A stretch of DNA of 64,000 nt from NCBI GenBank assembly GCA_050633305.1, contig JBOEGF010000010.1, positions 832,001 to 896,000 on the forward strand. The letters are read 5' to 3'. The notes under the pieces are model-generated. The model was given only the letters and a program-made list of their open reading frames with translations. It was not told where the DNA came from and made no database searches. How positions within the stretch are numbered: the stretch's first letter is position 1; each line of letters begins with the position of its first letter. Positions 15,069-21,417 of the stretch are shown in pieces. A program made the position numbers and the translations under genes. The stretch comes from Nannocystales bacterium. GTDB taxonomy: Bacteria; Myxococcota_A; Polyangia; Nannocystales; Nannocystaceae.

Positions 15069-16099
<1,031 letters not shown>

Positions 16100-16103
<4 letters not shown>

Positions 16104-16705
16104 GCGACGAAAACAGGACACGGAATCGTGCTCAGTTCGCCAATGAGGGGGGCGTGGACGATCCCGACTCCCAGCCCAGCGAGCCGTTGGCCGACCTCGC
16201 GGGCGTATTTCGGGACCACCACGGGTTCGTTTGGCGCAGTTTGGTGCATCTCGGTCTGCCCACGGCCACCGTCGACGATGCCCTGCAGGACGTGTTCTTG
16301 GTCGTTCACCGCCGCATCGGTCACTTCGACGGGCGAACCTCGATTCGGAACTGGCTGTACGGAATCACGCGCCGGGTGGCCAGCGAGTACCGTCGCGGAA
16401 CCCGGCGCGCGATTCGTCGACTCGAAGTTGTTCGCGATCCCGACACTCATGCGGACCCGGAGGGCCTCGCGAACCGAATCTCGGCGGCCGACGCGGTCGC
16501 GAAGGTGTTGGACACGCTCGATGAGGACAAACGAGAGGTTTTCGTGTTGGCCGAAGTCGAGGGGATGACGTCGGTTGAGATCGCCGAAGCGCTGCAAACG
16601 AACGTCAACACGATCTATGGGCGTCTACGTGCCGCTCGCCTGCATTTTGCTCGGGCCCTCAAGCGCGAGCAGGCGCGCGCGGGTCGCCAGGAGAGACAAC
16701 GATGA
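16100..16705 (+). CDS. ECF RNA polymerase sigma-70 factor
   Basis: Region 2 [11 protein letters not shown]...[10 protein letters not shown]; region 4 [32 protein letters not shown]. Confidence 0.92.
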
Positions 16706-17475
16706 ACGAGAACGAACGCGCTGCACTCGCGGAGTACCGTGGCTCGCTGGGGAGGAAGCAGCCCGAACAGGACCGGGACTGGGCTCGTCTCGTGAGCAAG
16801 ATCGAGGCCGGTGCGCAGCCGCTTTCGGTGGAGCTTGAGGCGCGCCCGCGACGTCGATGGCTTCCGTGGGGACTTGGCGCGGCGGTTGCGGTCCTGAGCG
16901 CCGTGTGGGCGTGGCCGGAGCCCGAGCCGGCCGACGCCGCTCATCGACCCGGCGGAGCCCAGGCGGCATATGGGGCCGGGGAACAGACGTCTTCGGCCTC
17001 GGTCCGCTCACAGTCCCTGCCTGTTCGTAGCGTGGACCCCGGACGACAACCTTCGACATCGGGCGCACCCTCGGTCGAGCCGGACCTCCCGCCGGCTCCC
17101 GTTCCGGCTCTCGCCCCCGAGGCGAGGCGGGGTATCGTGGACCGTCGCAGTCGAGCGCCGGCCTCCGGTCGCGAGGTCGAGCCCGCGGCGGAGGTTCCCA
17201 AGACCCACAATGTGGTCGCAGAGGCGAAGGCGCTGCGAGAGATTCGAGCCGCGTTGCGAGACCAGGACGGACGGCATGCGCTCGGGTTGCTCCGACGCTA
17301 CCGCTCCCGGTTTCCAACCGGGGTGCTTCGGGATGAGGCGACGGTGCTGCACGCAGACGCGTTGTGCTTGGATGGGCAACGGGAGAGGGCTCGAACCATC
17401 GCGGCTCGCTTCGCTCGTTCGCATCCCCGCTCGCCGCTTGCCGGGAGAGCCCGGGGCCTATGCGAGGACTCGTGA
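16702..17475 (+). CDS. Putative membrane anti-sigma factor with C-terminal TPR-like helices
   Basis: ATGA-coupled to sigma; single TM; Pro-rich linker; AL..L..Y...FP.G.L..EA and F...HP.SP pattern. Confidence 0.7.
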   Translation: MNENERAALAEYRGSLGRKQPEQDRDWARLVSKIEAGAQPLSVELEARPRRRWLPWGLGAAVAVLSAVWAWPEPEPADAAHRPGGAQAAYGAGEQTSSASVRSQSLPVRSVDPGRQPSTSGAPSVEPDLPPAPVPALAPEARRGIVDRRSRAPASGREVEPAAEVPKTHNVVAEAKALREIRAALRDQDGRHALGLLRRYRSRFPTGVLRDEATVLHADALCLDGQRERARTIAARFARSHPRSPLAGRARGLCEDS

Positions 17476-19575: not shown

Positions 19576-20055
19576 TTGGCCGTCGACGTCGACAACCTCT
19601 ACCGCCGGTACGGACCGTTCGTGTTGCGGCGTTGTCGAAGGATGCTGCGCGATGAGCAGCAAGCGTATGAGGCGATGCAAGACGTTTTCTTACAAGTGCT
19701 GCGGCGCCGCGAAGCCATCGAGCCTCGAGGGCTGGGTGGGCTTCTGTTTCGGATCGCAACCAACGTCTGTCTCAACCGAATCCGGTCGACCACCCGAAAA
19801 CCACAGTTCTCCGCGAGTGACATGCTTCATCGAGTCCCAGCAGCCGAACGTTACAGCAGCCAAGCCGAAGCGCGTGATCTGCTTCGGAGTGCGTTCGCCG
19901 ATGAACCAGAGAGCTCCGCGACCATCGTAGCCTTGCATCTGCACGACGGGCTGACGCTCGAGCAGACTGCACGCTTTGTCGGCATGTCGGTGTCTGGTGT
20001 CCGCCACCGCCTTCGGGTCCTCAAAGCCAAGCTCCAGGAGCTCCGTGATGCCTGA
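19576..20055 (+). CDS. ECF RNA polymerase sigma-70 factor
   Basis: LYRRYGPFVLRRCRRML, AMQDVF, LFRIATNVCLNRIR, DGLTLEQTA..GMSVSGVRHRL; TTG start. Confidence 0.9.
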   Translation: MAVDVDNLYRRYGPFVLRRCRRMLRDEQQAYEAMQDVFLQVLRRREAIEPRGLGGLLFRIATNVCLNRIRSTTRKPQFSASDMLHRVPAAERYSSQAEARDLLRSAFADEPESSATIVALHLHDGLTLEQTARFVGMSVSGVRHRLRVLKAKLQELRDA

Positions 20056-20893
20056 GACCGTTCCCGACATCCTCGTAGAACTTCTCGCCCTGGGCGAACT
20101 CGACGACGCGGAAGCGAGTGCCGTGCGGGCGCAGCTCGAGGCCGAGGGCGACCCCCGACTCGACGAACTCGCAACGAGCGACGTGGAGGTGTTCGCGCGG
20201 TACCCCGCGGAGCAGGTCGTCGCCGAACTACGCGAGGCTGGGTTTCCGCCGCAACCGGTTGCCGAGGAGCTGCCCTCCAACGTCACGCCCTTGACTCGGG
20301 CGCAGGCGGCACCCCGGGCCCGAGTCCGACCGTGGGTCGCCGCAGCCGTCTCCGTGGCTGCTGCCGCTGTCTTGGTGTGGGCGCTGGCCTCGGGCGACGA
20401 GCTGCCGCCCGAGGAGCCGCCGAGGGTTGCGATGGTCGACCCTCCGACGACCTCCGGCGATCCGGCGGGGATCCGTACGAAGGGGGTTCCTCGCATCCTC
20501 GTTCATCGGCAGGGCGAGTCCGATCCGCTGGAAGCGGGTGCGGCAGTCCACGCCGGCGACATGCTTCAGCTGTCGTACTCGGGGGCGGGTGGCCGACACG
20601 GTGTGATCGTGTCGCTCGATGGGGCCGGTGTTGCGTCGCTGCACTTCCCGGCTCAAGCCGACGCATCGACAGAACTCTCGCGGGGGCTCGTACGACTCGA
20701 GTACGCGTACGAACTCGACGATGCACCCGTGTTCGAACGGTTCTTCCTGGTCACCGCTCCCACACCGCTCGACCCCGATGCAGTCCTGTCAGCCGCGCGT
20801 CGGTTGGGGCAGAGCGAGGCGCCTGGTGCTGGGGAGTTGGAGTTGGCGGAGAGTTGGTCGGCTGTTTCGCTCGCGGTCAAAAAGTCAGACTGA
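20048..20893 (+). CDS. ActD-like membrane anti-sigma protein with DUF4384-like C-terminal domain
   Basis: PDILVELLALGEL N-terminus, single TM, IRTKG, GDMLQLSY, SLDGAG...LHFP, YELDDAPVFERFF; overlaps sigma stop. Confidence 0.75.
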   Translation: MPETVPDILVELLALGELDDAEASAVRAQLEAEGDPRLDELATSDVEVFARYPAEQVVAELREAGFPPQPVAEELPSNVTPLTRAQAAPRARVRPWVAAAVSVAAAAVLVWALASGDELPPEEPPRVAMVDPPTTSGDPAGIRTKGVPRILVHRQGESDPLEAGAAVHAGDMLQLSYSGAGGRHGVIVSLDGAGVASLHFPAQADASTELSRGLVRLEYAYELDDAPVFERFFLVTAPTPLDPDAVLSAARRLGQSEAPGAGELELAESWSAVSLAVKKSD

Positions 20894-20954: not shown

Positions 20955-20984
20955 TTGACCCGGTGGGGTTCGTCCCCTACACCG
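20955..20984 (+). promoter_or_regulatory. Candidate sigma70-type promoter TTGACC-N17-TACACC overlapped by an inverted repeat
   Basis: -35-like at 20955-20960, 17-nt spacer, -10-like at 20978-20983; CGGTG...CACCG and GGGG/CCCC dyad across the spacer and -10. Confidence 0.5.
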
Positions 20985-21260
20985 ATGCGGTCCGCCCCTG
21001 GCGACGACGCGAGAACTCGCCATGGAACGCTTCACGACCCAAAAACGCACAGCGGCCAAACCGGCTCTTGTGCGGATGGTTGCGCCCACGAAGGGCCGCA
21101 ATATGGGCGCGTGTTGAGCGTTCCCGGGCGTTGTTGCTGACGTTGCACTTCGGTGTACAGGCGGCCTGCCCGGGCGCTGGGACATGCGAACTTCAACCCG
21201 CCCTGCAGGCGGCCGACGTCGTCGTGACGTCATCGTCGTGGGGTCGATTCCCACGGCTCT
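20985..21260 (+). ncRNA. Candidate structured non-coding RNA / tRNA-operon leader of unknown family
   Basis: No convincing ORF; nested complementary segments (e.g. GGAACGCT 21024-21031 with AGCGTTCC 21117-21124; TGACGT 21138-21143 with ACGTCA 21227-21232), cUUCGg tetraloop at 21148-21153. Confidence 0.45.
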
Positions 21261-21266
21261 TGTCTC

Positions 21267-21340
21267 GGTCTGGTAGCTCAGTTGGTTAGAGCGGCGGATT
21301 CTTAACCCGCAGGTCGAGGGTTCGATTCCCTCCCGGATCA
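21267..21340 (+). tRNA. tRNA-Lys(CTT), atypical, no encoded CCA
   Basis: Acceptor GGTCTGG/CCGGATC, D-arm GCTC-AGTTGGTTA-GAGC, anticodon loop TT-CTT-AA, T-arm GAGGG-TTCGATT-CCCTC. Confidence 0.88.
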
Positions 21341-21346
21341 CTGCGT

Positions 21347-21417
21347 GGGTCTGTAGCTGATTGGATAGCACTCGTCTGTTAAGCGAGCGCATGCGGGTTC
21401 GAATCCCGCCGGGCCCT
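21347..21417 (+). tRNA. tRNA-Asn(GTT), atypical (possibly pseudo), no encoded CCA
   Basis: Acceptor GGGTCTG/CGGGCCC, short D-arm GCT-GATTGGAT-AGC, anticodon arm CTCGT-CTGTTAA-GCGAG, T-arm GCGGG-TTCGAAT-CCCGC. Confidence 0.8.

What the first reader, a model, noticed from the sequence alone, without database searches (positions are those of the whole stretch)
20985..21260. Candidate novel multi-domain structured RNA co-transcribed with two atypical tRNAs
Seen, domain 1: CGCCC(20993-97)/GGGCG(21126-30) closes a junction holding hairpin TGGCGA(20999-21004)/TCGCCA(21017-22) and a long arm GGAACGCT-T-CACG-A-CCCA(21024-41)/TGGG-CG-CGTG-TTG-AGCGTTCC(21104-24). That arm encloses two hairpins, CGCACAG(21046-52)/TTGTGCG(21068-74) and TTGCG-CCC(21080-87)/GGG-C-CGCAA(21093-21101), with A-rich linkers. 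Domain 2: TGACGT(21138-43)/ACGTCA(21227-32) encloses TGCAC-TTCG-GTGTA and CCTGC..GGGCG/CGCCC..GCAGG. All helices nest without conflict and there is no credible ORF. It lacks the hallmarks I know for tmRNA, RNase P, SRP, T-box or 5S. Established: several large bacterial ncRNA classes (e.g. GOLLD, Y RNAs) lie beside tRNA genes. Inference: an undescribed ncRNA or leader in a regulated ncRNA-tRNA operon. This is my best candidate for a new system in this window.
Basis: partly seen in the sequence, partly recalled or inferred. Interest (0 to 1): 0.8.

Follow-up and report, generated by a model that had tools for sequence, protein, structure and literature searches.

The report
Codon-sensing leader before spare tRNAs
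The folded RNA hides a tiny, conserved reading frame rich in the very codons read by the spare tRNA genes behind it, so it most likely lets a slowed ribosome report a tRNA shortage and call up replacement tRNAs, a feedback I found no report of.

Summary
The helices are real (z -3.3), but "no credible ORF" is wrong. Domain 1 holds a 31-codon ORF (21022-21117). Frame-blind pattern scans found relatives: all 57 hits followed by tRNA genes are open and in frame. Leader amino acids track each downstream tRNA set (41 leaders: 0.53 vs 0.39 permuted; 32 CM-found leaders, one a repeat: 0.31 vs 0.16; both 0/100,000). The stop-codon segment pairs either with the start region or with a downstream segment. 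Inside larger arrays, single tRNAs have their own cognate-codon mini-ORFs, often ending their sensor codons 7-10 nt before the tRNA and reading into it. There is no U-tract terminator (3/41) and no rho in 72 of 72 family genomes, so the output step is not classical attenuation; I favour gated tRNA processing or stability. Translation and regulation are inferred; no RNA data exist here.

The parts
20955..20983 (+). promoter-like element, -35 TTGACC, 17-nt spacer, -10 TACACC (inferred; the -10 lacks the final T)
   Evidence: Same TTGAC-N18-TA spacing in homologues found without it. The strict sigma-70 scan does not call it.
21022..21117 (+). leader ORF, 31 codons, M-x-R-x-T ... C-stop; Lys codons AAA, AAA, AAG and Asn codon AAT
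   Evidence: Frame, start and stop conserved across 41 + 31 distinct leaders; codons listed; 4 of 30 residues are Lys/Asn, reached by 1.7% of 16,684 background ORFs.
21024..21041 (+). segment 1 (start region), pairs with segment 2 in the ribosome-free fold
   Evidence: 96% of cells paired, 5 two-sided changes vs 1.0 in shuffles (several columns were fixed by my search pattern); window duplex z -4.6.
   Evidence: ORF interiors fold better than dinucleotide shuffles (z<-2 in 38 of 41) and codon-order shuffles (36 of 41); one pair with 13 two-sided changes.
21108..21129 (+). segment 2, the switch strand across the near-invariant Cys-UGA end; pairs with segment 1 or segment 3
   Evidence: last residue C in 66, R in 4, S in 2 of 72 leaders.
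21168..21188 (+). segment 3, partner of segment 2 in the alternative helix
   Evidence: Predicted at p>0.5 in 40 of 41 leaders when the start region is masked; own partner -33.1 vs swapped partner -28.7 kcal/mol, 0/20,000.
21235..21257 (+). T-loop-like hairpin with G at position 54; role unexplained (tRNA relic or processing signal)
   Evidence: Kept with a U-A to C-G change in orthologue L173, not in L195; z -3.8.
21267..21341 (+). tRNA-Lys(CUU), array type; the only CUU tRNA found in this assembly
   Evidence: A housekeeping-type copy occurs in other genera of the family but no CUU match in the 6 other genomes of this genus.
21347..21417 (+). tRNA-Asn(GUU) with a short D arm; extra to the housekeeping copy on C7

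Best explanation
A translated, codon-sensing leader that controls a spare tRNA operon. Shown by comparison: a promoter-like site, then a short ORF whose codons are those read by the tRNAs downstream, its stop-codon segment able to pair upstream (1:2) or downstream (2:3). Inferred: when cognate tRNA (here Lys or Asn) is scarce, uncharged or damaged, the ribosome slows inside the ORF, segment 1 is covered, the 2:3 helix forms and the downstream tRNAs are produced; when the ribosome runs to Cys-UGA it blocks 2:3 and the RNA takes the off route. Because there is no U-tract and no Rho in this family, and because sister mini-ORFs sit in fixed register to tRNA 5' ends and read into them, I think the output is most likely post-transcriptional (pre-tRNA folding, processing or decay) rather than termination. 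Odds: codon-sensing cis-leader about 0.85; shortage turns tRNAs up, given that, about 0.85; post-transcriptional output, given that, about 0.6. The confidence below weighs the sensing step most.
For: Frame not imposed by the patterns, yet 14 of 14 and 43 of 43 hits followed by tRNAs are open and in frame; of 38 hits without a near tRNA only 1 is open, and the only out-of-frame hit of 45 has no tRNA. Seven ORF lengths (84-111 nt), all multiples of 3; internal stops 0 of 41 vs 12 of 41 in frame +2; 13 to 67 codons and two GTG starts among CM hits. Amino-acid match to own array 0.527 vs 0.388 (41 leaders), 0.539 vs 0.371 (15 cluster representatives), 0.311 vs 0.157 (32 CM-found leaders, one a repeat of L143), each 0/100,000. 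Lys in 14 of 15 leaders with tRNA-Lys vs 3 of 26 without; Trp 8/8 vs 4/33; Asp 25/25 vs 5/16. Codon level: ACA 1.41 vs 0.14 per leader with or without tRNA-Thr(UGU), AAG 1.11 vs 0.17 for Lys(CUU). Three unrelated leaders in the same genome match their own operons (Pro/Gln/His 15 of 34, Leu 6 of 30, Ser/Tyr 8 of 35). Switch. Mini-ORFs in 89 of 129 spacers match the next tRNA, 0.164 vs 0.067, 0/20,000; last cognate codon 7-10 nt before the tRNA in 45 of 89; early stops inside the tRNA 19/89 vs 79/178 in other frames.
Against: No transcript, ribosome or mutant data. No strong Shine-Dalgarno before the window's ATG (sequence); the strict promoter scan finds nothing. The window's own match is modest (4 of 30) and orthologue L195 has 0.08; by raw fraction the own array ranks first in only 1 of 15 representatives because large arrays match everything. 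Ser, Arg, Pro and the final Cys do not track tRNAs; ACT does not track Thr(AGU); the Ser/Tyr leader is reached by 19% of background ORFs. In the free fold 2:3 already wins in 29 of 41 and 1:2 in only 7 of 41; masking mid-ORF leaves the window in 1:2. Column counts for 2:3 on the MAFFT alignment are no better than shuffles (misregistered). Folding of the first tRNA depends only weakly on ribosome position (46 leaders: 0.35 vs 0.18, p 0.006 for an early stall; no effect for a mid stall or in the window). The window has no cognate mini-ORF before its tRNAs. Sequences are related, so permutation values overstate. tRNA calls used ARAGORN at 95% threshold; L143's Met genes were not found by Rfam at cut-off.
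Confidence: 0.62

Rival explanations
1. Same codon-sensing leader, but the output is transcription attenuation by a non-canonical route (U-less hairpin pause/termination helped by NusA, NusG or Mfd; Rho in hosts that have it).
For: Architecture of alternative helices around a leader stop codon is that of attenuators; uORF control of Rho is known for mgtA, corA, tnaC, speF (PMC12360218, passages); the Gemmatimonadota carrier G222 has rho; a weak terminator-like call at 21235-21257.
Against: rho in 0 of 72 family genomes, including a single-contig one, while 95 of 121 phylum genomes have it; T-runs in 3 of 41 leaders; the terminator-like call is at chance level (1 vs 1.2) and its tail is not kept in L173; mini-ORFs reading into tRNAs fit processing better.
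Confidence: 0.2
2. A general translation-stress sensor: the conserved M-x-R ... C-stop peptide or its slow stop senses antibiotics or release-factor state, and codon matching is secondary.
For: Ends are far more conserved than the middle; the Anabaena array is induced by impaired translation (PMC8421152 abstract).
Against: The conserved ends are also the pairing segments; the middle tracks tRNA content down to single codons.
Confidence: 0.1
3. A free-standing structured ncRNA co-transcribed with tRNAs; the ORF is a by-product.
For: Good folding scores in the window and conserved ORF-interior hairpins.
Against: An RNA-only role does not explain triplet-only length changes, absence of stops or codon-to-tRNA matching; domain 2 is not conserved; no Rfam family.
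Confidence: 0.05
4. Decaying remains of a horizontally acquired tRNA array, no longer functional in this genome.
For: Patchy spread: 28 of 72 family genomes, 0 of 6 other genomes of the genus; a T-arm-like relic and only two tRNAs.
Against: Promoter, ORF, both helices and both tRNAs are intact and kept in syntenic orthologue L173 and in L195; the Lys(CUU) gene is the only one found in the assembly.
Confidence: 0.03

Closest known systems
Classical leader-peptide attenuators (E. coli his, pheA/pheL, thr, trp, pheST; hisL row seen in PMC12360218, pheL abstract start, the rest recalled)
   Same: Short upstream ORF rich in sensed codons; alternative helices overlapping the ORF end; ribosome as sensor of charged tRNA.
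   Different: Controlled genes are tRNAs, not enzymes or synthetases; one leader senses up to about 12 amino acids matched to the array; no hairpin-plus-U terminator; extra mini-ORFs before single tRNAs.
uORF-controlled Rho-dependent attenuators (mgtL-mgtA, corL-corA, tnaC, speFL; PMC12360218 passages)
   Same: No intrinsic terminator; translation of a uORF restructures the leader.
   Different: rho is missing in all 72 family genomes searched; targets are non-coding.
Inducible tRNA L-arrays, Anabaena trn operon (PMC8421152; repressor TrcR, PMC10272220 listing)
   Same: Supernumerary, patchily distributed, atypical tRNAs suited to stress supply.
   Different: There control is by direct repeats at the promoter; the word 'leader' does not occur in that paper's main text or in PMC4758250. 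Here arrays are 1-20 genes, several per genome, each behind a codon-matched ORF.
GOLLD RNA and YrlA/Y RNA
   Same: Structured RNA beside tRNA genes; a T-loop-like hairpin.
   Different: No Rfam match at cut-off; YrlA 25 bits vs 69 and chimeric with the real tRNA; flanking genes are an ECF sigma pair and an unnamed protein.

Membership tests
Classical leader-peptide transcription attenuator | short leader ORF enriched in the sensed codons | tested here: met
Classical leader-peptide transcription attenuator | mutually exclusive helices set by ribosome position | tested here: met
   Predicted and partner-specific; column covariation for 2:3 inconclusive
Classical leader-peptide transcription attenuator | intrinsic terminator (hairpin plus U tract) in the off state | tested here: not met
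   T-run of 4 or more in 3 of 41 leaders; one chance-level call in the window
Classical leader-peptide transcription attenuator | leader is translated and starvation induces read-through | not testable with these tools
   needs ribosome profiling or reporters
uORF-controlled Rho-dependent attenuator | host encodes Rho | tested here: not met
   0 of 72 family genomes, controls positive; G222 outside the family has rho
uORF-controlled Rho-dependent attenuator | C-rich unpaired rut site exposed in one state | tested here: inconclusive
   C 1942 vs G 1704 after the stops; unpaired share 0.43 vs 0.36
tRNA L-array (Anabaena type) | long array, supernumerary and patchy | tested here: inconclusive
   Patchy and extra, but the window has 2 genes; relatives 1-20
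tRNA L-array (Anabaena type) | repressor direct repeats at the promoter; HNH gene upstream | not tested
   No repeat search was run; the window's upstream genes are an ECF sigma factor and an anti-sigma-like ORF
GOLLD / YrlA / tmRNA / RNase P / SRP / T-box | Rfam covariance model at gathering score | tested here: not met

The most novel reading that the evidence does not exclude
A translation-gated tRNA supply system without precedent: in Rho-less myxobacteria, spare tRNA operons are read by ribosomes as mRNA; a master leader lists the codons of the whole array and mini-ORFs in fixed register to single tRNAs decide, codon by codon, which pre-tRNAs fold and mature, so the cell replaces exactly the tRNA species that is short, unmodified or cut by an anticodon nuclease.
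Probability: 0.4. Interest if true: 0.93.

Novelty: new variant of a known kind. Interest (0 to 1): 0.85.

Why it matters
Bacterial tRNA genes are thought to be controlled at the promoter (growth rate, stringent response, a repressor in Anabaena; general knowledge plus PMC8421152). A leader whose codons are matched to the tRNAs it precedes would close a direct feedback loop on the supply of single tRNA species and would explain what some supernumerary tRNA clusters are for. With neither terminator nor Rho, the output step must itself be unusual, and pre-tRNA translated as mRNA would be new. It is testable in a cultured strain (L164, record title Paraliomyxa miuraensis SMH-27-4) or with reporters. 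The leaders also predict tRNAs that gene finders miss and could serve as codon-specific translation sensors.

Tried and rejected
Rfam at cut-off and by E-value: only tRNAs; YrlA hit rejected as chimeric. Hairpin pattern in viral contigs: 87 matches, not examined, treated as uninformative. BLAST of the region: 5 of 71 relatives, 2 of them (L011, L014) without tRNAs and dropped. Domain 2 as an intron-bearing or decayed class II tRNA: considered by eye, not supported by orthologues. TACACC/GGTGTA inverted match: not pursued once the 2:3 helix explained the downstream copy. Rho-dependent model: my first guess, rejected for this family. Anti-acceptor pairing before the first tRNA: weak (-10.3 vs -9.7 kcal/mol, 351/20,000). 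Frame +1 stop count (38 of 41) discarded because ATGA creates it. 2:3 column covariation inconclusive. CM R1 has only 3 pairs and scored 24-51 candidates per genome, so its counts are lower bounds; in the phylum sample only G113 besides G000 looked real; 11 of 43 CM loci were left out of the test (1 duplicate, 1 too short, 1 at a contig end, 8 weak hits without tRNAs). Pattern in the phylum of G222: 1 of 401 genomes. NCBIfam: no family for 6 leader peptides; Pfam: none for the window's. One search timed out and was rerun. Literature searches without a description of such leaders; one search found no paper on rho loss in this family by title or abstract start. Supplements of the tRNA-array papers were not read and most subscription journals are not in the library.

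Full report
Observation. The six helix pairs given with coordinates read as stated. The region folds better than 200 of 200 dinucleotide shuffles (z -3.27). Rfam finds only tRNA-Lys(CUU) 21267-21341 and tRNA-Asn(GUU) 21347-21417 here; the best other match is a 25-bit YrlA fragment against a cut-off of 69. The region lies between an ECF sigma / anti-sigma-like pair and a convergent unnamed gene.

The missed ORF. BLAST over 72 family genomes gave 5 weak matches outside this genome; 3 lay upstream of tRNA clusters. All three, and the window, have TTGAC-N18-TA, then ATG, then an open frame of 31-32 codons ending in Cys-TGA. In the window it is 21022-21117. I then scanned with patterns that fix only the two ends and allow any distance. 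Of 52 hits in GTDB and viral contigs, 14 were followed by tRNAs within 800 nt and all 14 were open and in frame; of the other 38 one was. With the promoter motif added, 44 of 45 metagenome and viral hits were open and in frame; 43 had tRNA arrays, one was cut 31 nt after the stop, and the one out-of-frame hit had no tRNA. The 59 open leaders reduce to 41 peptides of seven lengths, all multiples of three. A model built on 33 of them hit 28 of 72 family genomes; every convincing new hit with sequence behind it preceded tRNA genes, with 13 to 67 codons and two GTG starts. Named carriers are labelled Nannocystaceae, Myxococcota or Myxococcales, plus one Gemmatimonadota genome, so I infer the family is Nannocystaceae. 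Outside it the element was rare in what I searched.

Codons follow tRNAs. Leaving out the pattern-fixed ends, the share of leader residues with a tRNA in the own array was 0.527 against 0.388 for permuted pairs; 0.539 against 0.371 for one leader per 60% cluster (15); and 0.311 against 0.157 for 32 leaders found later by the model, one of them a repeat; none of 100,000 permutations reached the value in any test. Lys, Trp, Asp, His, Phe, Asn and Thr carry the signal; Ser, Arg, Pro and the last Cys do not. It extends to codons (ACA with Thr-UGU, AAG with Lys-CUU; not ACT with Thr-AGU), and leaders favour AAT and GAT although seven window genes use AAC 35 times and AAT 3 times. The window's leader has three Lys codons and one AAT. 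Three other atypical operons in this genome have unrelated leaders that match their own tRNAs (Pro/Gln/His, Leu, and more weakly Ser/Tyr), and in four of the five atypical operons TTGAC lies 224-312 nt before the first tRNA against about 40-70 nt for many housekeeping genes. Relatedness inflates the statistics, but shared descent alone does not say why a leader should contain its own array's amino acids (inference).

RNA switch. The same stop segment can pair downstream (2:3; 21108-21129 with 21168-21188). 2:3 is predicted in 40 of 41 leaders when the start region is masked and in 29 of 41 when free; 1:2 wins in 7 of 41 free folds, the window among them. Each stop segment pairs better with its own downstream region than with others' (-33.1 vs -28.7 kcal/mol, 0/20,000), and 34 of 41 beat 95% of shuffles; a column count on the MAFFT alignment was inconclusive. 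The hairpins inside the ORF are conserved as structure (38 of 41 with z<-2). Domain 2 is not conserved in L173 or L195; only the T-loop-like hairpin is kept, in L173.

Output step. Only 3 of 41 leaders have a run of four T before the first tRNA. rho was found in 0 of 72 family genomes but in 95 of 121 phylum genomes and 8 of 14 controls. So neither standard form of attenuation fits this family. A clue comes from larger arrays: 89 of 129 spacers hold an ATG frame enriched for the next tRNA's amino acid (0.164 vs 0.067, 0/20,000). Among 89 mini-ORFs chosen for having a cognate codon and reaching the tRNA, the last such codon starts 7-10 nt before the tRNA in 45, and the frame avoids early stops in the tRNA (19 of 89 against 79 of 178). 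A ribosome waiting there would sit at the tRNA's 5' boundary, and one that passes would run through the tRNA; this points to control of folding, processing or decay (inference). Folding calculations gave only weak support, and the window itself has no cognate mini-ORF.

Known systems. It works like a leader-peptide attenuator but fails the terminator test and the Rho test, so I do not file it as a member. Inducible spare tRNA arrays are known from Anabaena, where promoter repeats control them (PMC8421152: abstract, passages and section 18 read; PMC10272220: listing only). PMC4758250 (passages) has no 'leader'. PMC12360218 (passages) lists uORF-Rho cases, none of those shown on tRNA genes. Replacement of nuclease-cut tRNAs is proposed for phage tRNAs (PMC10264068, listing only) and is a possible purpose here, untested. 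Seven searches found no description of codon-matched leaders on tRNA operons. Earlier notes of this scan describe such leaders before synthetase genes in other genomes, none before tRNA arrays.

Verdict. A real and probably undescribed regulatory element: not a free ncRNA but a translated, codon-sensing leader for spare tRNAs. Sensing is strongly supported by comparison; direction and output are inferred. Interest 0.85.

Noticed in passing
72 genomes of the family: No rho gene in any family genome, including single- or few-contig ones, and it is missing in many genomes of the same class, while most of the phylum has it.
   Followed up: partly
G000:C13:26362-26765 (-), C27:100925-101496 (-), C47:18510-18853 (-) (L102-L104): Three more atypical tRNA operons with unrelated leader ORFs rich in Pro/Gln/His, Ser/Tyr and Leu; the C13 leader is kept in frame in G005 (L117).
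   Followed up: partly
G000:C47:18956-19107 (-): Two tRNAs with Arg anticodons (GCG, UCG) on unusual bodies, TTGAC 224 nt upstream, Arg codons in a frame without a clear start; the neighbouring Leu tRNAs are 76 nt and lack the long variable arm.
   Followed up: no
G000:C18:127476-128600 (L106): Promoter-like site of the same type, a 28-codon ORF, a hairpin like the window's T-loop element, a U-tract terminator, then repeated tRNA-like fragments ahead of a VWA-domain gene.
   Followed up: partly
L115 about 640-770 on the minus strand reading (same locus as L161): tRNA-Ser(CGA) that seems to carry an insertion of about 50 nt in its D loop.
   Followed up: no
L138, L206, L214, L230, L240; G000:C76:3-87: tRNAs with A at the wobble position (Thr AGU in arrays, Leu AAG in this genome), rare in bacteria (recalled).
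   Followed up: no
window 21267-21341 and family: This genus seems to lack the housekeeping tRNA-Lys(CUU); AAG is the main Lys codon (65 vs 14 in seven window genes), so the array copy may matter more here.
   Followed up: partly
L109, L110, L111, L143: Arrays with many near-identical copies of tRNA-Lys or tRNA-Met (up to 10), separated by repeated spacers.
   Followed up: no
window 15069-16103, 16100-17475, 19576-20893: An ORF with long Glu-Ser and Pro-Glu repeats and two ECF sigma / anti-sigma-like pairs upstream of the element.
   Followed up: no
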